Assembly: GCA_964016885.1 (NCBI GenBank)
Contig: OZ024742.1
Span: 229,338,001 to 229,402,000, forward strand
Source: Eledone cirrhosa
Lineage: Eukaryota
Length of the DNA: 64,000 nt
Direction of reading: 5' to 3'
Within the stretch, counting starts at the first letter, position 1. Every line of letters starts with the position of its first letter. The translations under genes were made by a program, and so were the position numbers. The notes beneath the pieces are model-generated. The model did no database searches. It saw only the letters and a program-made list of their open reading frames with translations, and had not been told where the DNA came from. Positions 3,986 to 61,877 of this stretch are shown here, in pieces.

Positions 3986-4525
3986 AACTTAGTGTCTGAT
4001 ATAATCTTGTGAAAGAGTTAAACTAACATAAGTGGATGTTAAAATGTTAGAAACATTTTACTAGTTTCTTATTCTTCCAATGAATGCATATAATGTCTGC
4101 TATTCACTTGTCCAGGGCTTAATCAGAGATAAAGCTATTCATCCATGCATGGACACCTAATTCTTACTAGAATCATGTGGGCGCCGCTGTGACAGGCGGT
4201 ATTGTAAGTCTGCTGGAGTCCTTTGCACTCCAAGTCTGAAGACAATGAATATTTCCAGAGAGTAAGAGGGTGTGAAAAAGAAAGGGAGGGACATATAAAA
4301 GAAAGGAAGAGACATACAGAGGAAGAAGAGACCTCAACAATGGACTGGTACTGTTCTTTTACCGACCATAAAAGGAGGAAAGACAACGTTGACTTCAACT
4401 TATAACCGGAACGTATATCACAAAGAATTCTATCCGACATCCTAATGACTTTGCTACTACGCCCCTTACATGAACAGGCTGTAAAAAGGTCAGGGTTTCT
4501 GTTGCAATTGTCTATTTGTACAAAA

Positions 4526-4708
4526 TAGTTGTTTCTACTATTGGCACAAGGCTAGTAATCACCCTAGTGCATCACTGGTACTTTATTTTATCGACCCCGT
4601 AAGGATGAAAGGCAAAGTTAACCTCGGAGGGATTTGAACTCAGAATGACAAGGGCCGTAAATCTATGTTGCAAAGCATGGCGTCCGACCCTCTACCGATA
4701 CTGCCAAT
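4526..4708 (-). mobile_element. tRNA-derived SINE copy
   Basis: Reverse complement of the 3496-3686 family. Confidence 0.85.
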
Positions 4709-5245
4709 AGTATAATATTACTGCCAATAGTATAATATTAAATACCAAGTTGTAAAATGAATAAAATATTATAAATAGATATAAAAATACAAGCATCTCT
4801 ATTGCTATCATCTGTTCTCTTCAAATTACTGCGTATATTATTTAACATCCAGCAGTGAAACGGTTAAAGATACATGAATAGCTGTAAAAATATAATCGTA
4901 TCATTTATTGCGATGAATGTATTAATTTGGTAGCAAAAAAAAAAAAGAAAAGCAGGAAAAGAGTCGTCTTCAACATGAATGTAAACATTTCTCTGCTAAT
5001 GATACGAGAGAGAATAATGTCTGTGATTCTATGTTTACTGACGAAGATTGTTTTTATCGCTCTTTATAGCAATTCTCTCTCTTCATATTGTCTTGTAAGT
5101 TGTTGCTTTTCTCAAATTATTTAATTTCCATAAAAGCATCATTTACATAGCTCAGACAAAAACCCAATAAAAGGGTGTGCAAAAAGAAACGTATACCAAC
5201 GTTAGGCGCGTATATATATATATGTATATATGAGCATACATATTT

Positions 5246-5312
<67 letters not shown>

Positions 5313-5373
5313 TAAATGTACTATACATGGATATATATATATATATATTTATGTATATGCGTTTGCATACATA

Positions 5374-5432
<59 letters not shown>

Positions 5433-6011
5433 ACTTACATACGTGTATATGTAATATAAACATGCGTACATAGACTATATATGGCGTGGAGGAGGAGTAA
5501 TTTGGGAAGTAATCCCATTAGTAAAAGCAATAATGTATCCATTAAAAGACGTTTGCTTATGTGTTTTCCACAAACAATCGTGTAACCGTATAACCCGGAG
5601 GAGTAAATTCATCAAATCTTGAAAGTTTTTATATTACAATCTAGTTATTATTGATTAACCATAAATATCAAAGTAATGGAAATGTGAGTAAAAATTGTAT
5701 ATACTTTCTATATTCTTCGCTTTGACACATTATCTCAATAGATGTCACAGACAAAAGCAGGTTATTGTAGTTATAAACCTATATGCTTAAAAACAGACAT
5801 CACAGCACAAACATACGCTTACATTTATCTGTCTGTCTGTCTCTGACTCTCTCACACTTAATAGTCTCTCTCTCTCTCTCTCGCGCTCTCTCTCTTTCTC
5901 TCTCTCTCTCTAGATATATATATATAAATATATATATATATATGTATATATATGTGTGTCTGTGTGTGTACAGGGTGCGGACGGTATATGAGGACACATG
6001 TATTTTTAGTC

Positions 6012-8236: not shown

Positions 8237-10193
8237 CACTGGTGAACAAAAAAATATTCATTTCATGGTTCTGGTATAATTTAGTATGATTCTAGGGTAA
8301 CCAAGTGTGCAGAATCTGAATATGACAACGGTTAAGCTATATCGGGTCTAGTTTTCAAGAACCAGCATATCCATGTTTATGACCCATAGCTATGTGGCTC
8401 ATATTACTTCATCCAATTGTATCCACTATATTTAGTTGTTAACTAATTTATATTTACTGCTTTTGTTTTAGATCACAGAATTGTAACTATCCTCAGCTAT
8501 TCTTGGATAATTCACAACAACTTTGACTAGTGGGAGAGATGGAACGCCGGAAATGTGTAAATGACCCGGACCGATTTTGCTATATTTGTGGACTCTTTAC
8601 CCCAGAAAGCATAAAGAAACCAATCACAAAAGCAGTTCGAGTAAACTACAAATGCTACTTCAAATGTCCATTAGGAGACCAGGACAAGAAATGGGCGCTT
8701 CATATAGCGTGTAGGTCATGTGTTAATCACCTAAGTGAATGGAAGAATGGGAAACGAAGCTCTGGTTTGCCATTTGCCATACCAATGGTGTGGCGAGAAC
8801 CAAAAGACCACAATAACGATTGCTACGTCTGCCATATAAACATCCAAGGAATAACTGTGAAGACACGAACTACACTTCAATACCCCGATATCTCGTCAGC
8901 AATCCGACCAGCACCTCACAGTGACGAATTACCTGTTCCAGTTCCACCTGCTGAACACGAGCTAATCTCTGATTCTGATTCCAGTAGCACCCCTATTGAT
9001 GATGACTATCAAGACGAACATGAGACAAGTGAACCCATACCATTTAACCAGGAAGCTCTTCACGATCTCATTAAAGACCTACATTTGTCTAAAGAAAAGG
9101 CAGAGCTCCTGGGATCAAGACTGAAGCAACAAAACCAGCTAGAACCTGGCGTCGGCATTACAACCGCTCGTCATCGTCATAAACAACTTAATTAGTCTAC
9201 TTCTCGGTCTTCAGACTGGTTACACAAAGCATATGTGTATTCTATGTTTGTGGAATAGTAGAGCAGATGCGGAGCACTACAGGAAGAAGGATTGGCCAAC
9301 AAGACCAAAGGATGCACCCGGTAGATCCAACTGTTTGTACAAACCTTTCGTGGATCCAGAAAAAGTATTCCTCCCTCCATTACATCTCAAATTAGGCTTG
9401 GCCAAAAACTTTATTAAAAGCATGGATCATACAGGTAATGGGTTTCAGTACTTATGTAAGAAATTGGGTAGAGTGGTATCTGAAGCAAAGTTAAAAGCAG
9501 GGGTTTTGAATGGTCCTTAGATTCGTATGCTGGTTAATGATAGTGAGTTTACGAAAACACTAAACCCTTTGGAGACTAATGCATGGAAATCATTTGTAGA
9601 TGTGACACAGAACCTTCTTGGAAACCACCGTGCAGACAACTATAAAGAAATTGTTGAAACCATGATACAAAATTATCGCGCTCTGGGTTCACGAATGTCG
9701 TTGAAGCTTCATTTCTAGGAGACATCAGTGATGAACATGGAGAGAGAGGTTTGACCAGGTTTCATAGTGCAGAGTAGGTATCAGGGTCGGTTCAATCCCA
9801 ACATGATGGGCGACTACTGTTGGACACTGCAACGTGAGGAGAGTCAGAAAAACAACCGTAAAAGCAAAATCCAGAAATTTGTTTAGAAATGTTTTGAAAT
9901 ATTTTGCTATGTTCAGAATGTTGTTCAGAAATGTTTTGTTAATATACTAAGTGTTAAAAAAATAAATAAAAATATGTTTATATATTTTTATTAATAAGTT
10001 AATATGTTTATATCTAAGTCATCATATGTTACACAATGGATAAATAATGCAATACGAGGAACATATTTTCGATCTCATATTAAGGTATTCTAGTCCGATA
10101 GCAAAACATGAATATCAAAACTGAATTTAGTGCTATGAAATTAGTAAGATGCACATATTCACATGTAAGAACCATTTTGGCTGTTGACGAGTG
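8237..10193 (+). mobile_element. Chapaev3 (CMC superfamily) DNA transposon, internally deleted
   Basis: CAC...GTG termini (CACTGGTGAACA / CACTCGTCAACA), 3-bp TTA target duplication at 8234-8236 and 10194-10196, and transposase motifs. Confidence 0.8.
8539..9886 (+). pseudogene. Chapaev3-type transposase pseudogene
   Basis: CVNDPDRFCYICG, PFAIPMVWREPKDHNNDCYVC, LLGLQTGYTKHMCILCLW, LPPLHLKLGL, MSLKLHF, DISDEHGER. There is a deletion near 9190 and in-frame stops. Confidence 0.85.
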
Positions 10194-12893: not shown

Positions 12894-13356
12894 TGGCTGC
12901 CAACTCGTTTTCGAGTACGGCCACTACTTTATATCCATGTAGGAGAACCCCTACCGATGCGCTGAACGAGTGTGACTTTTTAGTCCAGCCAGCGACTTGA
13001 AAACTCTGGCACAAACACTACACTTGTGACAATTATTGACACATAGTGCTGGGCCCATGGTACCATGTGATGACAAGTGCAGAGAGATCTCCAGATATAA
13101 AGCAATGCCTGTGCCGTGAAGCTTTTTGTAGTGAGCAAAGGCACTGCACAAAGCCAGTCCCACTCTCTTAACCAAGATGATATTTACCAAAAAGAAGAAC
13201 AAGTCAACATCATTGGATACCAGCAGGGTTGCAGGTGTTATATCAGAGTTTTCCTTCTCCTAGAATTCTGCCTTGACAAAGGCTAAGGGGTCATCTCTCC
13301 AGGTGATTTTGGATGGCCATTGACTCTTAAGAGCTCCTTTGCCCTTTGACAGGTTT
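12893..13356 (-). mobile_element. Non-autonomous RTE-derived retroposon (5'-truncated copy)
   Basis: Closely matches 42880-43343 in inverted orientation and carries the C-terminal zinc finger [23 protein letters not shown]. Confidence 0.75.
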
Positions 13357-13479
13357 TGTTTTTATATATATATATGTATGTATATATACATATATATATA
13401 CATACTTATATATTTATATATATATATATAAACACACACACACATATATATACTACATATATACATATGCATACATATA

Positions 13480-16813: not shown

Positions 16814-19288
16814 TGGGTCCTCGATATACGGTAGTTCTTTATCCGGTAAATTCATAGATACGGTCTTGGGTAATTACTACCATCAATTCTATTTACGGTA
16901 AAAAAAATTCACAGAAACGGTTTTTCGTCGTGTTTTGTTTATATTGTAAAGTAGCGCCACCTGTAGTAAGCAATAAATTCCACATTGAATTCGTGGAAAC
17001 TGACTTCTATTCGAATTCTAGGAAAATTGTGTTACTACTGCTATCGTACTAACTGACCTGACAGAGAAACTGGCCAATCACGAGCGAGTTCAGATATCGG
17101 TCGATGACGTCATAACTCATAACTGATCACTTTAGTTCGGCAAACTAGCCTGTCCTCTCAGCGAGAGAATTTTTGCCGAACTGAAGTGATCAGTTAAGAG
17201 TTATGACGTCATTCAAAGTAAGAGAAAACCCGACGGCGTGTTTTTGGAGCATAATTATCACGGCATATTTTATAACCCCATATCTCATGGCCCCAAAACG
17301 TCCTGCGAATATTGCTGATGCAGACGCATGAGGAAGAGCCTGACTTTGGAGATAAAGCTGGAAATTTTGAAAAGGAAGGAACAGGGCAAGGTACGTCCGC
17401 CATAAGTCGTAACTTAGGCCAAGCGCAGTTCACAGTCTGGACTGTTTTAAAAAATAGTGAGGCTATCCAAAAGGCTGGGGGGAATGCTACGAGTCTACAG
17501 AGTAAATTGTTGACCAAACATGGTGAGCCGATTATGGATAGGACGGAAAGATTGCTCAAAATTTGGATCGACGACCAAAATCGTAAAAATATGCCTCTGT
17601 CTTTAAATGTAATCAGTGAGAAAGCATTGTCCATTATTGACAGGCTCAAGACTGAAATGGGGGTGGAGGACCTTGTATTCATGGCAAGCAAAGGCTGGTT
17701 TGATAAGTTCAAACGACGTTCGAGTCTTCACAACATAAATGTTACAGGTGAGGCTGCCAGTTCCGACAAAATTCAAGGCAGTATTAGAGAAATGCATTGC
17801 AGAGAAGGGGTACAGCAAAAAACAGGTTACTAATTATGATGAAACAGGACTTTATTGGAAAAAGATGAACAGTAATAATTATATTGAGAAGGAGGAGAAA
17901 AGTGTGAAGGGGTTCAAAGCCTGAAAGGACCGCGTTACTCTGTTACTTGGAGGGAATGCAGAAGGAGATTTAAAGCTAAAGCCACTCATTATCTACCATT
18001 CTGAAACTCCAAGAGCACTCAAGGGGTTACTTAAGCAATACCTAACAGTGATATGGAAGTCTAATAAGAAGGCATGACTGATCACTTCAATTCACCAGGA
18101 TCTTTTCACCTCATATCTGTCACCAACACTTAAGGAATATGCATTAGCTAACAACGTTGCCAACCGTTTTCTGCTATTAGTAGACAACGCTCCCAGCCAC
18201 CCACAGGCAATGGAAGACTGGTCAGAAAATATTGAGGTTTTGTTTCTCCCCCCAAACACCACAGCTCTCATTCAGCCGATGGATCGAACAGTCATCAAAA
18301 CATTTAAGGCATACTACCAGCGAGAACCACACAGAAGCTGATAAAGGGCACAGATGGGCCTGACAAGCCCACGATCAGGGAATGATGGAAATTGTACAAC
18401 ATCAAGCACGGCTTAGACAACATCAAGGCATCTTGGGAAGAAGTGAAGCAGTCTACCATGAACTTGGCCTGGAATAAATTATGGCCAGCATGTGTGAATG
18501 ACTTCCAAGGCTTTGCTGAGGACATTGGTGCGATAAAAAAAAGATATTGTAAATCTCTGCCATAGAGCTGGCTTCGATGGTGTTAATGATGAGGATGTGC
18601 AAAACCTTTTGGAAAGCCACGCTGAACCACTCTCCAATGATGAACTCATAGAACTAGACAAGGCGGTACAGGAGACAGAAAAAGAAGAAGAGGTGGAAGA
18701 AGAACATGTGCGTGGCTTGGACATAAACACTCTAAGAGAATGTCTCCGGAGTATCGAAACAATCTTAGAAACCCTGAAGAGCGTGACCCCAACTCTGCTA
18801 GGAGCAGCAAAGTGGCTCAAGACGTCGAGAAAAGCGTCAAGATTTACCAAGAAATGTATGAAGCCAAAAGAAACTCTGCCAAAATCCTCCATCTACTCTT
18901 TCTTCAAGCCAGTCACACCTGCCAACCGTGCTACAGCTGGCCCTTCAACATCTACTGGAGTCAACGAGTTTGTTGGTTTTTAGTCTCCCACATCACCCTC
19001 ATCCTCCCCTGCCAACTCAGCCCAAGATGAGTAAGGGCTGAAACCCATACCGTCCCTTAGCCTCGGGAGGGACAAATGAAGAGGCACATCATCTGATGGA
19101 CTACACGGCATGTATAAGGTACGGTAAATAAAAAAAAAAACATTATTTCTTTTCAGGATGGATGACTTTTTCGATGTACTGGAACGCATCCCTATCTATT
19201 TCATGTTATAATGAGTTCTTTATACGGTAATTCGATATACGGTAAGGGTTTCTGGAACGCATATATACCGTATATCGAGCACTCACTG
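16811..19288 (+). mobile_element. Tigger/pogo DNA transposon, full length but decayed
   Basis: TA TSD; 23-bp TIRs CAGTGGGTCCTCGATATACGGTA / CAGTGAGTGCTCGATATACGGTA; about 2.5 kb. Confidence 0.92.
17287..18983 (+). pseudogene. Tigger/CENP-B-like transposase pseudogene
   Basis: MAPKRP start, FMASKGWFDKFKRR, NYDETGLYWKKM, KDRVTLLLGGNAEGDLKLKP, LLVDNAPSHP, FLPPNTTALIQPMD; several frameshifts and stops. Confidence 0.92.
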
Positions 19289-37039: not shown

Positions 37040-37780
37040 ATAATGAAAAAGGATTTGGGAATGTCACGAGATGCAGGTCGCGTCGATGATCATAGGAGCA
37101 CTAGATACTATCTCAAAGAGTTTTCAAGGATGGTTAAAAACATTAATCCAGTCCCTCTTTTTTGGAACACTTCAGAAGGTTGGGAACAGCAAGAACCCTC
37201 TCATATGTCCTGAATATCTGAAGCAGCAGGTAGCGCCTTGAAGTTAATTTGAACAAACTTTCCAGTTAAATAACATCAATGACTGAGACTCAAAGAACAA
37301 CAACAACAACAACAATACAGGCTGGTCTGTACCTTTACTGGTATTTTCCGATACTTGTATCAGAATGCTCCAGAAATGTTCCTGTGTTGGCAGAGCCATA
37401 TCCAATATTCTCAGGGTCTTCACTATCAAAATGGACCAGAAACAGGAATATAAAAGACCTGATAATGTAGTTATGCTCAGAAATAGGCGTGAATGGCAAA
37501 TTATCTACATCATCCTCCTGGGACACAACAGAGCTTTCAGAGAAATTGACAAAAAACAAAACAAAAAACAAATTGACTTGAAGATTGAAATTGCACGAAT
37601 ATTGCCAATATTCTCTAACAACATCAAGATAATTCCAGTTGTCATTGGAGCACTGAGAGGGTTTCTTAAGAAAATAGACCTTGAATAACAAATTGTTCTA
37701 TAAAACGCTGCCCTATTGAACACTGTGCATATATTCAGTAAAATACTGTCTGTCTAATGTCAGTGTTGAGACTGAACACA
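37040..37780 (+). mobile_element. R4/Dong-like non-LTR retrotransposon 3' fragments (restriction-like endonuclease domain), two pieces
   Basis: KRPDNVV...DLKIEIARI...IIPVVIGAL at 37365-37688, and a second IIGALDTISK..LGTART piece at 37060-37215. Confidence 0.7.
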
Positions 37781-39314: not shown

Positions 39315-40304
39315 CATACATACATACACATATATATATATACATATATATGTGTGTGTGTGTCTGTTCATATGATCGACCGTGTGTGTGTAGTAATATC
39401 TATTATATATAAATCCGAAGCGACCAATCAACGATATTTATAACTATGCACAAATACACTTACACACGAATTATTATGGTTATATATATACTACACTCTC
39501 CCATATATTTATATAATGCGTATCTGTATATGTGGGCGAGTGTGTCGTGTGTAAAAGTGTGCGTGCGTGTGTATTTGCGTGTTGAATGATAAGTATGACG
39601 ACTTATTGAAGTGTGTGTAGCTGACTAAAGTAGTTTAAAAAATGTCATCCATGTAATTAAATATTACATGAAATAACCATCGTTAGTAGAGTTTACTCGG
39701 CACAAATTTCATTTGTTACGTTTCAGTGAGTCTGCCATTTTTTCTCTCTAATGTCATTTCTTTGCGCAAATATTGACTGATTGCTAAATGTATGTAAGCC
39801 ACTAGAGTGTGACACGAAATAAATTATGGTGGTTAGCTTCGTTCATCACATACCCCCCACGCCGCTGTGTTCGCATTGTATACTTGTATCCTCTGGGTAT
39901 AGTGTATAAATATGAACACACACACACACATTCACGCGCATATATATGTATATATATATATACATATATATATATATTATATTATATATTTATGGGGGGG
40001 GGGGGTTGTGTATGCATACATACACACACCTACATATATTTTGGCGTATGTGTGTCTAACTATATATATAATTAGTTGTAAAGACGAGAGTAAGAATACA
40101 AAGTAGAATCCATATTTTTTTTGTTCCAAGCCTTATTATTAACCCTCTAGCCACGGAAGTTTCTGGATATATGACTTTGCCATTATTCAGTTTGCAGGGA
40201 GATGAATCCTTTTTTGTCGCATGAACTGAATACTTAATGAGAAACAATGTGTAGAAACGAAATAAATTATTAATTTCGACCGAATATATATATATGTATG
40301 TATG

Positions 40305-40369
<65 letters not shown>

Positions 40370-40416
40370 AATGAATAATAACAGGTAGACATCATAAAAA
40401 GGTAGTTTATTCCGTG

Positions 40417-40528
40417 TGCTTACAAGTGTTTCCACGGTGGTGCTGCAGCCTAGTTCCGCTACGTGCAAATTCACAAGTATTTGCAGAACTCGAATATCCA
40501 ATGCTGTGACCACTGTTTCCTCAGAGCA
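40417..40528 (-). ncRNA. Minimal hammerhead ribozyme with extended stem II
   Basis: Minus strand: TGCT-CTGAGGA-AACAGTGGT...ACCACCGTG-GAAA-CACTTG-TA-AGCA. Confidence 0.7.
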
Positions 40529-41019
40529 GAATGGTAAATATACAATGTAAAAACCCTTAAGTGGGGTTGTTGGGGAGGATAGAGTGGAACAGGAAGAGAG
40601 AAAAGTAGGGAAGAAGGAGAGCGAAGGAAAGATATGCAGGGGTTGGAGAAGTAGGAGAGAGTGGCTTGTAGATATCTTAATCAAAATGTTATGGTAGGGG
40701 TTTTATTAGTTACTTTTGGAGAGATGCGTAGATAGTTGAGGTCGGAATTATTTATTGCCCCAGAGGGCAGGTTCATAAATGTTGAGAGGGAGGTAGGTCA
40801 AAGGTGAGAGAGAGAGAGTGTAATGGATGTAGAGAGAGATATATAGGTAGAGAGGGGACAGATAAATATGTGTGGTGAGTGAACTTTTGGTTTTGTAGTA
40901 GTAATCAAGGAATTGTACTGAGTTACCATGTATAGTGATAAGCAGTGTATTGTCTTGTAGTGTGGGGGGAAGAGAAGGTTGTTAGCTAGAAAGTGGTATT
41001 GTAGTTACGGGTTCGAATG

Positions 41020-42024
41020 TTAAGTTATTTTATAGTGAGAGAATTTAGCTTTTAGTTTGTGGTTGCAGTATAATGATCGTTCAATTCTATCGTTAAGTAG
41101 TTTGTTTTTGGATTTTAGTATGTAAAATAGCTCAAGGTTACATAACCTGCAGTACTTCAAACCACTCCGATATGCATTTGCGCTGGAGAGTATATCCCAT
41201 TTTAAGGTGAACTGTTGGTTGTGTTCACGGAGTTGCCAGGTCTTGTTGGCGAGCGTGGTCACAAAACGGTGATTCTGATGTTTGATTGAGAATCGATGAC
41301 GGTACCAGCGAGATTTAAACGATGTGGTGGTAGATCCGATATAATACCATTTCTGGTCGTCCGATTCAACCGTGCATTGGTAAACAATGTTGGACTTTAG
41401 GCATTCATTCTGCAATGAATTCACCGCTTCCAATTCCAATTTAGTGGGTTCTTTACTGACTCTAGTGTTGTATGGTCTGTCACTCACATTAAGGCTGTGT
41501 ATCTCTTGAAACATATCGTTCCATATCACTTGTAGGGTTCCCACAAGTTTTTGGTGCTCTGTTTGTTCAGTAGAGTCATGAATTGCAGCCTCGTTGTTGA
41601 TGTGGTGACAATTACTACTAGAGTCAGCTGACCTTTCTCGCTGTTCTTCAGTGGAAGTGGGATGGATTTCAGCAAAATTGTTGGTGAGCTGTTCACTGTT
41701 AGATTTAGCTGGCCATTCTCTTTGTCTGTCAGTGGAGGTGGGGTCGTTGTCTACAAGGGCTGTATTTGTAGTATCACTCGATTCCGTTAGATGTATCAGT
41801 TTACATCTAATGATACGTTTTGCCTGTTCATTTAGATGCTTTGGAGAAAAGTCTAATTCTGGGTGTTTGGAGTTCCATAAAGTTTTTAGCCTTTGCATAA
41901 AACCGAACTTTTGGGGTTCAGATTGTTTGTATACTTCATATAATTCTTTGTTAAGCTCGTAGCTCCACTGTATACAACGGTTGTAATTGCGATTTGGTCG
42001 AAGGAGACTTGTACTTTTTGCCAT
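41020..42024 (-). CDS. Intact 334-aa ORF: R4/Dong-like N-terminal domain fused to Naiad-type GIY-YIG endonuclease; no RT
   Basis: C-terminal IVYQCTV..YYIGST..FKSRWYRH..LKWDIL..CRLCNLE..LLNDR..CNHK aligns with the GIY-YIG at 56000-56400. N-terminal WSYELNKELY..SEPQKFGFMQRLKTLW..HP..LNEQAKRI resembles R4-clade N-termini. Confidence 0.75.
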   Translation of the reverse strand: MAKSTSLLRPNRNYNRCIQWSYELNKELYEVYKQSEPQKFGFMQRLKTLWNSKHPELDFSPKHLNEQAKRIIRCKLIHLTESSDTTNTALVDNDPTSTDRQREWPAKSNSEQLTNNFAEIHPTSTEEQRERSADSSSNCHHINNEAAIHDSTEQTEHQKLVGTLQVIWNDMFQEIHSLNVSDRPYNTRVSKEPTKLELEAVNSLQNECLKSNIVYQCTVESDDQKWYYIGSTTTSFKSRWYRHRFSIKHQNHRFVTTLANKTWQLREHNQQFTLKWDILSSANAYRSGLKYCRLCNLELFYILKSKNKLLNDRIERSLYCNHKLKAKFSHYKIT

Positions 42025-42736
42025 GATGAGTTCGTCTATTCACTAATATTTTGTATTTATTTTTTTTAAATAGTCGATGATCTTCTTTAAAAGTTACGAC
42101 AAAGTTCTGTCAGAATCAAATTTAAAGTTATTCACAGCTTGGGTAATATTTCTTTTCAGTTAGTTTTTAATTCTACAACTGTGTTTTAAACGTTGTTCTT
42201 GAATCGTTTGAATCGAGAACAAAAAGAACCGTTACTTAGTATATTCCTTTACGAATGTAATATAATATAACAACGCTGTATTTATATGTTAAAGTTTATG
42301 TATCATTCATATAAATAGGTGTTCTACAACATATTCACAACATTCACAGTTCAAACACTTATATTTTTGTTTCTGAATCGAAAACGTTACTTTTATATTT
42401 CTTTATAAATGTAATATAACAACGTTGCATTTATATGTTAAAGTATATGTATCGTTCATATATCATAAGTGTATGTATCGTTCATATAAATAGGTGTTTT
42501 ACAACACACTTACAGTTCAAACACTTATGTAGAATTATTGTATGTAATCTTACCGCGTAATGTAGCTCAACTTTTTCCAATATATGGTATGTTGCCTTCA
42601 TGTAAGCCGTAATTACACACGTCCGATTATCGGACACTGACCACAACGGTCGCCATATGTATGTATGTATATATGTAGTATGTATGTATGTATGTATGTA
42701 TGTATGTATGTATGTATGTATGTATGTATGTATTAT

Positions 42737-43343
42737 GTCAGGTCACCAGTTGGTGCTACTGGTAACATGTATCCCAGTACAACCTGTCTCATGGTCAGGT
42801 CTTGGCGACTAAACTGGCAACCCCAACCAAGGTTTCCTGGTGAGAAGGGTGACTTTGGACATCCTGCAGGACTAAAAACAAAACCTGTCAAAGCGCAAAG
42901 GAGCTCTTAAGAGTCAATGGCCATCCAAAATCACCGGGAGAGATGACCTCTTAGCCTTTGTCAAGGCAGAATTCTAGGAGAAGGAAAACTCTGATATAAC
43001 ACCTGCAACCCTGATGGTATCCAATGATGTTGACTTGTTCTTCTTTTTGGTAAATATCATCTTGGTTAAGAGAGTGGGACTGGCTTTGTGCAGTGCTTTT
43101 GCTCACTTTAAAAGCTTCACAGCACAGGCATTGCTTGATATCTGGAGATCTCTCTGCACTTGTCGTCACCTGGTACCATTGGCCCAGCACTATGTGTCAA
43201 TAATTGTCACAAGTGTAGTGTTTGTACCAGAGTTTTCAAGTCGCTGTCTGGACTAAAAAGTCACACTCGTTCAGCGCATCGGTAGGGGTTCTCCTACATG
43301 GATATAAGGTAGTGGCCGTACTCGAAAACGAGTTGGCAGCCAC
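42737..43343 (+). mobile_element. Non-autonomous bipartite RTE-derived retroposon (~600 bp)
   Basis: RTE-like 5' leader (CTTGGCGACTAAA, AAAACCTG) joined to a 3' zinc-finger remnant; second copy at 12893-13356; flanked by microsatellites. Confidence 0.7.
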
Positions 43344-43605: not shown

Positions 43606-44960
43606 AGTGTGTGTGTGTGTATGTGCGTGTGTGTGTGTGTGTGTGTGATTATAGTGGATATTATCTTAGGTATGGTGAGAGAAGCTCTATGCACAGTACA
43701 ATCCTCGGTTGTAAGTCATCGACAGTTAAGGTTCTCGTTGAGATTATAGGTAGCAGAGCATTATTATTCAATATTACAAAAAAACATTCATTCTTTATTT
43801 ATACGTCTGTTTCAATACGTTAATAATGCTACATGCATTTGCAGAACAACTGTATATGATTAGTTATCAATTATATACGCCATATATGATACCTATAACT
43901 CGCATATCCCCAGGAAAATGAAAAAGTATAAAGTTTACCAATTTCGAATGGTTTAAAGATTAATACAATATCAAAACTCTGACCGTTGAGCAGACAGTTA
44001 GATTAAAAAAACATACTTTGTACATGAAGTTTTTCGACCGGGAAAAGTTACAATTCTTACGTCATTACAATTAACAAAGTTATTATTAGTTACTTTTCCC
44101 GTACAGTTAGAGTGATATCTGTTGTGTGACATTGCAGGAGTGGAAAATTATGTAATAGATGGCAGGAAGAAAGTTTAAATACGAGGCATTACTTATCTAT
44201 TATTTATTTAGTATGTTGTTGTTATTAATTTTCTTTATAAAGATGGAATAAAATTTGTTATTAGATTTGCAGGAATGGAAAACATTTTAAGAAGCAGTAG
44301 CGGGTACAGCCAAGGTGTTAGCGTTTTACATAGAGAATGAATATATACAAAAATATATATAAACATACGCAGCACAAGCGAAATTACCATTTTTATCAGT
44401 CCAGTTTAAGCATAACACACTCTTTATTTTTTCCTTTTTAAATTAATAAAAATATCTGTCTTTACGTTGTTAATTTAATTTTAGTCGATCGGTGTTTTTA
44501 TATTCTAGCGGTGTTCGTTCCGTTAATGCCGCCTGTTAAAAAAATGTCGTTATCTGCAATGTAGTTAATTGTTCTTACAATTTTCTCTAATACCATTTTT
44601 TTTATTATATGCTTATTTTTCTTTGTTTCTATTGTGGAGTGTCATAAGTGTAAATTAATGCTTCGAATGAACTTACGTATACCTATACCAAGAGATCCAC
44701 ATCGATGCGTGTATATATAAATATATCAACACCTGCCTTCATACACACTTATATATATATATACATTTAAATATATATAATTACAGACGTATCAGAGTAT
44801 ATATACTCATACACATGCATGTGTCCCCATATCACATTATCTAATATACATTATATAATAGACTGCAACCTAGTATGACGTCTCACATAGTAAAATAATA
44901 CAATATAGTATAACAATATGTACCACAATACGTTACTATATATCACCTAACATTATATTA

Positions 44961-45340
44961 GTGGATTGGCAGTATCGGTAGAGAGTCGGACGCCATGCTT
45001 TCCAGCATAGTTACGTCCCTTTACAATCTGAGTTCAAATCCCGCCGAGGTTGACTTTGTCTTTCATCCTTACGGGGTCGATAAAATAAAGTACCAGTAAT
45101 GCACTGGGTATTTGCTGGCCTTCTGCCTAAAGTAGAAACAATTATATTAGTGGATTGGCAGCATTGGTAGAGGATCGGACGCCATGCTTTGCAGCAAAGA
45201 GTTACGTCCCTTTATGGTCTGAGTTCAAATCTCGCCGAGGTTAACTTTGCCTTTCATCCTCACGGGGTCGATAAAATAAAGTACCAGTAATGCACTGGAT
45301 AATTGCTGGCCTTGTGCCAAAAGTAGAAACAATTATATTA
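44961..45340 (+). mobile_element. Head-to-tail SINE dimer
   Basis: Two full SINE units starting at 44961 and 45150; ATTATATTA before, between and after. Confidence 0.9.
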
Positions 45341-54633: not shown

Positions 54634-56400
54634 TTGATTTTAAAGGAACTTAGGAAAAATTATAAAAAAGCCCCGGCTGAAGATCTTACAGAAATTAATG
54701 AGGATGCATATGAATTAATTACCAATTTAGGAATAGAAGGAAGAACTGAGCCACTTATACCTAGGCAGCCGCGGATTAACTTAAAAGATCACAAAAGAAA
54801 CTTCGAGGAAGACCTGCCAGTTAGACTGATTGCTCCATCCAAATCAGATATTGGAGTAAGCAGTAAAAACATTATCGATAGAATTCTACCTGCTCTTAAA
54901 TTGAGATCTAAATTGAGCTTGTTGAAAGATACAAATGAAGTCATAGAATGGTATAAGAATATAGATGATAAGAAAAACCATAAATTCATCCAGATGGACA
55001 TAACAAACTACTATTCTTGCATAACGCCCAACCTACTAAATAAGGCTCTATCATACGCTTATAAGCATACTGATCTAACCACAGATGAAATTGATATCGT
55101 ACTAACAGCTAGAAGATCTCTTATTAACTTCAACAACGAATATTGGACCCGCTCAGATAGAAATAGAAACTTTGATATCACTATGGGGGCACCTGATTCA
55201 GATCTTCTGGGGATTTTCTGGGGATTTTCATATTAAATATGATAAATAGAAAACTGCCGGAGATTACCGGTGGTTTATATAGGAACGACATTTTATTTAC
55301 GGTGGTCAAACACAACAATATTGAACTAAATAGAGTAAAGAAAAGTATAATAGATATCTTTAAAATGTATGACCTTAAGTTAGAAGTAGAAACTGGTACC
55401 AAAATAGTTAATTTTATTGATGTTACGTATAACTTAAACTCTGGCTTCTATTACCCTTTTCATAAGCCCGATGAAAACTTAAATTATGTTAGTTATTATT
55501 CCAATCACCCTAAGTCAGTAAAAAAAGCAATTGTAAAGAGTGTGCAAAAACGCATTAATAGAATATCTGCCAATAAAGCAATATTTGATGAAAATGCAGG
55601 ATATTATGAAGCGCTAAAAAGAGCAAGTTATGAGAATAATATAGAGTATGTAGATAATAATAATCCAAGTCTTAATCCTGATAAAAATAACGGCATATAT
55701 AAACGAAATTATAATAATTATAATTCAAACACCTATACGGTGAACAAATCGAGGAAAAGAACCAGAACTAAATTAGTTATATGGTTTGCCCCCCTTCTTT
55801 AAAGCTTTGGACAGCTCTTTCCCTAGTCAACATAAATACCATTCCATCTTTAATAGACACAATTATTATATCACATCTTATTCTACAACTATGAATATGG
55901 TCCAAAACATTGCTAAAATAAACAGTAAAATTCTAAAGCAGAATCAGCATAATAATTTTAATAATAGTGTTAACATAAATAATAATAAATCAAAATGTAA
56001 TTGTAGAATTAAACCAGATTGCCCTCTACAAAATAATTGTTTGGACAGTAATTTGGTGTATAAATGCACCGTAAAAACTGATTACAACATATACAACTAC
56101 ATAGGATCGACTTCTTCTACATTTGCGAATCATAAATGCTCATTTTCGAATTCTAATAGGAAATCATCGACTTCTTTATCACAGCTTATATGGTCATTAA
56201 AAGACAAAAAATTAAAATACTCTATCTTTTGGACGAAACTTTGTAATAGTGGAGTTTACCGCAGCTCAAAGTTTATCATGTAACTGCGCTCTGTGTACAA
56301 TGGAGACCCTATTGATAATTAATAATTATGAAAACTTAATTAACAAACAAGTGAATTATTCTCAAACTGCCTTCATAAAGCTTTGTCTACATTCCAAGCC
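54634..56400 (+). pseudogene. Naiad-type PLE reverse transcriptase + GIY-YIG endonuclease pseudogene
   Basis: LKDHKRNF..RLIAPSKSDIG, FIQMDITNYYSCI, FDITMGAPD, GGLYRND (YRDD decayed), VNFIDVT, SNHP, CNCRIKPDCPLQNNC, LVY..YIGST, CALCTME; at least three frameshifts. Confidence 0.9.
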
Positions 56401-57802: not shown

Positions 57803-57866
57803 TTTTATCTGATGAGGACGTACTATTGAACTTGATTCAAGTACCTCTGAAATATGTATAATAAAA
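57803..57866 (+). ncRNA. Minimal hammerhead ribozyme in the 3' pLTR
   Basis: TTTTAT-CTGATGA-GGACGTAC..TTGAA CTTGA TTCAA GTACCTCT-GAAA-TATGTA-TA-ATAAAA. Confidence 0.85.
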
Positions 57867-61472: not shown

Positions 61473-61486
61473 ATCATTATTATTCG

Positions 61487-61877
61487 GTGGATTGGCAGCA
61501 TTAGTAGAGGGTCGGACGCCATGCTTTCTAGGATAGAGTTACGTCCCTTTATTGTCTGAGTTCAAATCCCGCTGAGGTTTACTTTGCCTTTCATCCTTAC
61601 GGGGTCGATAAAATAAAGTACCAGTAATACACTGGAATAATAGCTGCCCATGTGCCAATAGTAGAAACAATTATTATTCGGTGGATTGGGAGCATCGTTA
61701 GAGAGTCAGACGCCATACTTTCTAGCATAGAGTTACATCCGTTTATGTTCTGAGTTCAAATCCCGTCGAGGTTAACTTTGCCTTTCATCATTACGGACTC
61801 GATGAAATAAAGTACCAGTAATACAGTGGGATAATTGCTGGCCTTGTCCCAAAAGTAGAAACAATTATTATTATTCG
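61487..61877 (+). mobile_element. Head-to-tail SINE dimer
   Basis: Units start at 61487 and 61681; TTATTATTCG before, between and after. Confidence 0.9.

What the first reader, a model, noticed from the sequence alone, without database searches (positions are those of the whole stretch)
40366..42655. Intact RT-less chimera: R4/Dong-like N-terminus fused in frame to a Naiad GIY-YIG nuclease, followed by a hammerhead pLTR
Seen: a 334-aa uninterrupted ORF, whereas every other TE ORF in the window is broken. The junction is near ...LEAVNS|LQNECLKSNIVY, where similarity to the 56020 Naiad protein (PLQNNCLDSNLVY) begins. The GIY/YIG strands, the conserved Arg, CxxCxxE, LLN and CxH motifs are retained, and there is no RT. 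The 3' region has a hammerhead and ends in (TA)n. Known: PLE GIY-YIG normally follows RT, while R4-clade elements use a restriction-like endonuclease. Inference: a cross-order template-switch product that may be an endonuclease-only mobile unit or a nascent gene. The N-terminal assignment is from motif memory.
Basis: partly seen in the sequence, partly recalled or inferred. Interest (0 to 1): 0.75.

Follow-up and report, generated by a model that had tools for sequence, protein, structure and literature searches.

The report
One-off join of two retrotransposons
At one place in this genome the front third of a young jumping gene is joined in frame to the nuclease end of an unrelated one, likely an ordinary insertion-and-deletion accident rather than a new mobile element or gene.

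Summary
The fusion is real but looks like a single accident. Window 42655-40366 (minus strand) is the first 1236 nt of a young R4/Dong-like LINE, two extra bases, then the last 1052 nt of a young Penelope-like element (PLE). The 334-aa ORF is a Myb-like domain, a disordered linker and a GIY-YIG nuclease. The donor is not a Naiad: its nuclease is C-terminal and it carries RWK, DKT, CxCX5C and a hammerhead motif, the Hydra-clade features. The fused junction occurs once in 3 Gb, against 575 and 179 parental junctions. None of 269 retrieved proteins has both domains. The open frame is unremarkable: the nuclease stretch is intact in 48 of 59 sibling copies, the LINE part in 19 of 40. The 5' flank is the LINE's (TACA)n target and the 3' flank the PLE's (TA)n target. 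This favours two insertions joined by a deletion (about 0.6) over template switching (about 0.28). The PLE's putative targeting zinc finger is lost. Nothing shows mobility or selection; expression was not testable.

The parts
42656..42738 (.). (TACA)n/(TATG)n tract, 5' flank; the LINE family's usual target
   Evidence: 40 of 47 scorable LINE 5' flanks and 0 of 59 PLE 5' flanks are of this type
42025..42655 (-). Complete 5' end and 631-nt 5' UTR of the R4/Dong-like LINE
   Evidence: same first base as 29 of 29 best copies, 99.4-99.7% identical; ATG at element position 632
41420..42024 (-). LINE ORF codons 1-202: predicted three-helix Myb/SANT-like domain (about 16-80), disordered linker (82-147), helix 152-178
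   Evidence: model; weak fold matches, Z about 5, to Zeste, ISWI and TRF1
41418..41419 (-). Two extra bases (TT), no microhomology; they keep the frame and create a GAATTC site
   Evidence: parent comparison
41020..41417 (-). Hydra-type GIY-YIG nuclease, residues 204-334 plus stop, cut just after the CxCX5C linker, which is lost
   Evidence: 131 of 131 aa identical to the parent ORF in L070; motifs; fold
40366..41019 (-). PLE 3' UTR (pLTR region) ending at the family's usual 3' end
   Evidence: 1910 exact 3' ends of this kind in the genome
40417..40528 (-). Type I hammerhead motif: 4-bp stem I, 85-nt stem II region, predicted cut after 40421
   Evidence: activity untested
40284..40365 (.). (TA)n followed by a short (CATA)4 and (TA)n, 3' flank; the PLE family's usual target
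   Evidence: 56 of 59 PLE 3' flanks and 4 of 48 LINE 3' flanks are TA-rich

Best explanation
This is a single-copy junction between the 5' 1236 nt of a young R4/Dong-like LINE and the 3' 1052 nt of a young Hydra-like Penelope element, likely made at the DNA level and likely without function. Inferred steps: a full-length LINE first inserted into a (TACA)n tract. A 5'-truncated PLE then inserted at a (TA)n run just downstream. Its 5' end was joined inside the LINE, removing the LINE's last 2975 nt, either during insertion or by a later deletion. Two extra bases left the join in frame by chance. If it were transcribed from the LINE 5' UTR, it would give a Myb-like domain tethered to a nuclease that lacks its own zinc-finger linker and any RT. 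It could not move by itself and has not been copied.
For: Single copy: 1 exact match, 1 with up to 2 mismatches, 1 full-length hit among 40 scored of 1606 candidates, against 575 LINE and 179 PLE parental junctions. Each end has its own parent's target: 5' (TACA)n in 40 of 47 LINE and 0 of 59 PLE copies; 3' (TA)n in 56 of 59 PLE and 4 of 48 LINE copies. Deletion-type ends are common in both families: 3 of 48 LINE copies are clearly 3'-truncated, and 12 of 59 PLE arrays lack a long 5' (TA)n, several joining other repeats. An open frame is expected fairly often: 48/59 x 19/40 x 1/3 is about 0.13 (my arithmetic). No protein among 269 retrieved has both domains. Retrotransposition-linked target deletions of up to thousands of bases with 5'-truncated inserts are known for L1 (PMC10760644, passages).
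Against: The needed precursor is rare: no PLE in 77 LINE loci, and one LINE in 101 PLE loci (some overlap), 1.65 kb away and in the opposite orientation. Both halves are equally young (4 private differences in 1236 nt, 5 in 1052), and the LINE half lies at the young end of its family (median identity of 39 other copies 96.1%), as a one-step RNA event would predict. Extra bases without microhomology fit RT non-templated addition as well as end-joining. Private coding changes are 3 synonymous and 2 non-synonymous, leaning slightly towards constraint (about p 0.1 if 75% non-synonymous is expected; my arithmetic). No ancestral allele was seen, so the order of events is inferred.
Confidence: 0.6

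Rival explanations
1. One-step cross-order template switch: an RT began on PLE RNA, copied 1052 nt, added two bases, jumped to a broken LINE RNA and copied it to its 5' end. The product is still a dead single copy.
For: The LINE part reaches its exact 5' end, both halves are equally young, and there is no microhomology. Both families have intact full ORFs (LINE 9 of 48 loci; PLE L070, L071). Adjacent young copies are rare. Template jumping with non-templated addition is reported for non-LTR RTs (PMC8857657, search listing only). U6/L1 chimeras are the precedent (title in a reference list; mechanism recalled).
Against: PLE-driven insertion should leave (TA)n on the 5' side: 47 of 59 do and 0 of 59 show (TACA)n. 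LINE-driven insertion would need priming on a foreign RNA end, and no PLE copy has (TACA)n flanks.
Confidence: 0.28
2. A functional unit: an endonuclease-only non-autonomous element, or a nascent host gene encoding a microsatellite-directed nuclease.
For: Open frame, LINE 5' UTR retained, both domains predicted to fold (pLDDT about 96), conserved nuclease residues kept, a slight synonymous excess among 5 private coding changes.
Against: One copy; about 0.4% private divergence, so too young to show retention; intact frames are common in siblings; CxCX5C linker lost; no protein with both domains among 269 retrieved.
Confidence: 0.05
3. Assembly or chimeric-read artefact joining two unrelated repeat copies.
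For: The junction is known from this one assembly only.
Against: The parents share no homology at the join that could mislead an overlap assembler, and two extra bases are present. Both halves carry private differences of similar density.
Confidence: 0.05

Closest known systems
Hydra-clade Penelope-like elements (Craig et al. 2021, PMC8557442)
   Same: The donor family has a C-terminal GIY-YIG, RWK, DKT, CxCX5C, CxxC and CxH around the conserved E and N, a hammerhead motif, (TA)n targets and tandem/inverted arrays.
   Different: The chimera keeps only the last 1052 nt and has lost the RT and CxCX5C. The parent unit is about 3.2 kb, slightly above the '<3 kb' described.
R4/Dong non-LTR retrotransposons (N-terminal Myb/SANT-like domain: PMC7998251)
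   Same: The parent has one 1169-aa ORF with RT and a C-terminal zinc-finger/nuclease region, a three-helix N-terminal domain and a microsatellite target.
   Different: The target is (TACA)n rather than the usual (TAA)n. The chimera lacks the RT and restriction-like nuclease.
Retrotransposition-mediated target-site deletion (L1; PMC10760644)
   Same: A 5'-truncated insert joined to upstream DNA with loss of the sequence between.
   Different: Here the insert is a PLE, the upstream DNA is another retroelement, and the join is in frame. The deletion is inferred, not observed.
Template-switch chimeras such as U6/L1 (recalled; title seen)
   Same: The 5' part of one element reaching its first base, fused to the 3' end of another.
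   Different: The two ends here show two different target signatures, and there is one copy only.
Naiad PLEs (PMC8557442)
   Same: GIY-YIG nuclease and (TA)n preference.
   Different: Naiads have an N-terminal nuclease and DKA and lack canonical hammerheads; the donor differs on all three.

Membership tests
Naiad PLE (donor) | GIY-YIG N-terminal to RT | tested here: not met
   The parent ORF has the RT motif first and the nuclease at the C-terminus.
Naiad PLE (donor) | DKG modified to DKA; CX2-5CxxC linker | tested here: not met
   The parent has DKT and CxCX5C (definitions).
Naiad PLE (donor) | No canonical hammerhead | tested here: not met
   A type I motif with both cores and stems is present, with a long stem II region.
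Hydra PLE (donor) | Single ORF, RT then C-terminal GIY-YIG | tested here: met
   779-aa ORF in L070 and L071.
Hydra PLE (donor) | RWK and DKT motifs | tested here: met
   Both are in the parent translation.
Hydra PLE (donor) | [quoted passage not shown] | tested here: met
   The parent has all of them; the chimera keeps CxxC and CxH but not CxCX5C.
Hydra PLE (donor) | Hammerhead and (TA)n insertion | tested here: met
   cleavage activity untested.
Hydra PLE (donor) | Placement with named Hydra RTs in a tree | not tested
   No named Hydra sequences were fetched; the paper's supplements were not opened.
R4/Dong LINE (donor) | Single ORF with RT and C-terminal CCHC plus restriction-like nuclease | tested here: met
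   RVT_1 E 3e-24, zf-RVT below cut-off; all six solved-structure hits are RTs, the best being R2 proteins; the PD..E nuclease motif was read by eye and its label is recalled.
R4/Dong LINE (donor) | N-terminal diverged Myb/SANT-like domain without zinc fingers | tested here: inconclusive
   Three confident helices, conserved in 53 of 269 retrieved proteins; fold matches to Myb/SANT domains reach only Z about 5.
R4/Dong LINE (donor) | Insertion into rDNA or microsatellites | tested here: met
   (TACA)n at 40 of 47 scorable 5' flanks.
R4/Dong LINE (donor) | RT phylogeny inside the R4 clade | not tested
   No named R4/Dong references were available among the hits.
Non-autonomous mobile element (the chimera) | Several dispersed copies sharing ends and junction | tested here: not met
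   One copy.
Domesticated transposon gene (the chimera) | Retained across species under purifying selection | tested here: inconclusive
   No protein with both domains among 269 retrieved; 5 private coding changes are too few to test.
Domesticated transposon gene (the chimera) | Transcribed and translated | not testable with these tools
   Needs RNA reads or ribosome profiles across the junction.

The most novel reading that the evidence does not exclude
A cross-order template switch put an R4/Dong Myb-like DNA-binding domain, under its own promoter, in place of a Penelope nuclease's zinc-finger linker. The product is an expressed natural re-targeted nuclease that nicks at (TACA)n, caught at birth and able to seed a new element or gene.
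Probability: 0.04. Interest if true: 0.7.

Novelty: new member of a known kind. Interest (0 to 1): 0.22.

Why it matters
As it stands it is a clean snapshot of how unrelated retroelements in microsatellite-rich genomes get spliced into in-frame domain shuffles, nearly all of which go nowhere. It would matter more if an allele comparison proved a LINE-to-Penelope template switch, a route for nuclease exchange between retroelement orders, or if the fusion protein were expressed and re-targeted. The more usable by-product is a young Hydra-like family with intact ORFs and 1910 exact 3' ends, a candidate for studying this little-known clade.

Tried and rejected
Simple internal deletion of one PLE: rejected, the N-terminus belongs to a separate LINE family. 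Homologous recombination between the parents: rejected, no shared sequence at the join. Rest of the LINE displaced nearby: not found in the window. Second haplotype or duplicate of the locus: the 3' flank search gave only microsatellite matches. Public runs: no RNA holder was listed, which says nothing about expression. Seven runs were laid (X1, X3, X4, X6 as contigs; X13-X15 as RAD reads). They showed the two parental continuations, and no listed piece bridged the junction. These are filtered contigs, reduced-representation reads and possibly other individuals or species, so the gap proves nothing. Rfam found no hammerhead at either threshold. The word-indexed protein search of the whole ORF found nothing at E<=0.001 among 437 candidates. 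Foldseek gave no match at E<=0.001. A genome-wide list of LINE-5'/PLE-3' pairs could not be made; only sampled loci were cross-checked. No Atlas result was obtained. Earlier scan notes: none. Literature searches listed no title or abstract describing a Dong-Penelope fusion; the library is partial.

Full report
Observation. The ORF is there: 334 codons, 42024-41020 on the minus strand. The element runs from 42655 to 40366 between a (TATG)n tract and a (TA)n tract. Pfam sees only a weak GIY-YIG match at residues 219-264 (E 3e-4, below cut-off).

Two parents. A search of the own genome gave, besides the window itself, 39 places matching exactly element positions 1-1236 at about 99% (40 scored of 3615 candidates). 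All 29 fetched copies continue with the same other sequence. That parent is a 4.2-kb LINE with a 1169-aa ORF, intact in 5 of 8 extended loci, with RVT_1 and a weak zf-RVT and R2 proteins as best solved relatives. The other half matches a second family at 98-99%, whose intact members encode 779 aa with RT first and GIY-YIG last. The join is LINE to 41420, two extra bases, PLE from 41417, with no microhomology and no shared sequence between the parents there; 2975 nt of the LINE are missing. Residues 1-202 are LINE, 203 is made at the join, and 204-334 are identical to the PLE parent.

The donor is not a Naiad. In PMC8557442 (abstract, outline and passages) Naiads have an N-terminal nuclease and DKA and lack canonical hammerheads. 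Hydra elements have a C-terminal nuclease, RWK, DKT, CxCX5C, CxxC and CxH around the conserved E and N, hammerheads and (TA)n targets. The parent shows the Hydra set. The chimera starts just after CxCX5C and so lacks it; that paper associates the linker with (TA)n targeting. A type I hammerhead motif lies 55 nt from the 3' end, and 0 of 1000 shuffles gave one. Rfam did not find it, probably because of the 85-nt stem II region (inference). The paper's supplements, which hold the Hydra sequences, were not opened, and no tree was built. For the LINE, PMC7998251 (passages) describes a diverged N-terminal Myb/SANT-like domain and microsatellite targets in R4/Dong. The model shows three confident helices at 22-74, disorder at 82-147 and a nuclease fold. 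The nuclease matches I-TevI at Z 10.4; the helical domain matches Myb/SANT domains only at Z about 5.

Copy number. The fused junction occurs once, exactly or with up to 2 mismatches, and once among 40 scored hits of a 161-nt query. The parental junctions occur 575 and 179 times, and the PLE 3' end 1910 times. A search of 1.84 billion proteins gave 2912 hits, of which the best 150 were seen; each best stretch lies in one half or runs only into the linker. Of 269 proteins match the N-terminal domain, 139 the nuclease and none both.

Is intactness a signal? No. The broken elements elsewhere in the window are older families. Among copies picked by the parental junction patterns, the same 131 aa are intact in 48 of 59 PLE copies, and the LINE frame up to the junction in 19 of 40 (two 5'-truncated copies whose frame runs into flank were not counted). 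These samples lean young because they needed an exact match. The chimera has 4 private differences in the LINE half and 5 in the PLE half. Taking 0.09 distance as 25 million years from an octopus study (PMC13282606, passages), that is roughly one million years at most. That the host is an octopod is my inference from the Argonauta hit and the repeat content. The five private coding changes are 3 synonymous and 2 non-synonymous, too few to test.

Mechanism. The ends are the best evidence. The 5' flank is (TACA)n, as in 40 of 47 scorable LINE copies and 0 of 59 PLE arrays. The 3' flank is (TA)n, as in 56 of 59 PLE arrays and 4 of 48 LINE copies (60 PLE regions were fetched, one lay upstream of a copy and was not scored). 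Each end therefore looks made by its own element, which points to two insertions and loss of the DNA between. Such losses are routine here: 3 of 48 LINE copies are clearly 3'-truncated, and 12 of 59 PLE arrays lack a long 5' (TA)n, some joining other repeats, including the 5' part of a Tx1-like LINE in L074 (the Tx1 label is recalled). L1 is known to delete target DNA in this way (PMC10760644, passages). Against this, close neighbours of the two young families are rare (0 of 77 and 1 of 101 loci), both halves are equally young, and extra bases also fit RT template jumping. I put the DNA-level route at 0.6, a template switch at 0.28, function at 0.05 and artefact at 0.05. Shown: the parts, the join, the copy numbers and the flanks. 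Inferred: the order of events, the deletion and the lack of function.

Novelty and verdict. The listed searches showed no report of this particular fusion, but the kind of event, a chance join between repeats, is known. It is a real, single, young chimera with a correctable label. Interest 0.22.

Noticed in passing
G000, e.g. L070:4008-6359, L071, L079, L088, L108: A young Hydra-like PLE family with intact 775-779-aa ORFs, tandem/inverted arrays, an optional 142-nt extension and 1910 exact 3' ends. PMC8557442 describes few Hydra families outside cnidarians.
   Followed up: partly
It has a C-terminal nuclease, CxCX5C at 55996 and a hammerhead motif at 57809, so it is Hydra-like too; 31-50% identical to the young donor.
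   Followed up: partly
window 42739-43290 (+) and 12946-13364 (-): A short element, 96% alike in its two window copies, resembling an RTE 5' part fused to an RTE 3' end (label recalled). Pieces occur in 26 of 40 LINE loci and 6 of 59 PLE loci, so it shares the (TACA)n target.
   Followed up: partly
L074:4260-6490 (also L040, L041): The same PLE family joined to the 5' part of a Tx1-like LINE, within a stretch duplicated at 99.75% over at least 4 kb about 1.2 Mb away.
   Followed up: partly
L175: A copy of this LINE runs directly into the RT end of a different R4/Dong-like family.
   Followed up: no
L134:404-2725 and 4381-6001: A young LINE and a young PLE 1.65 kb apart, head to head, across a long (TA)n/(TACA)n tract.
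   Followed up: partly
window 37287-37688 (+): A fragment resembling the restriction-like nuclease end of an older R4-like LINE (by eye; no Pfam hit).
   Followed up: no
window 8527-9520 and 17276-19030 (+): Broken frames resembling DNA-transposon proteins (by eye, labels recalled).
   Followed up: no
window 44952-45340 and 61476-61872: Two head-to-tail pairs of a related 191-194-nt unit.
   Followed up: no
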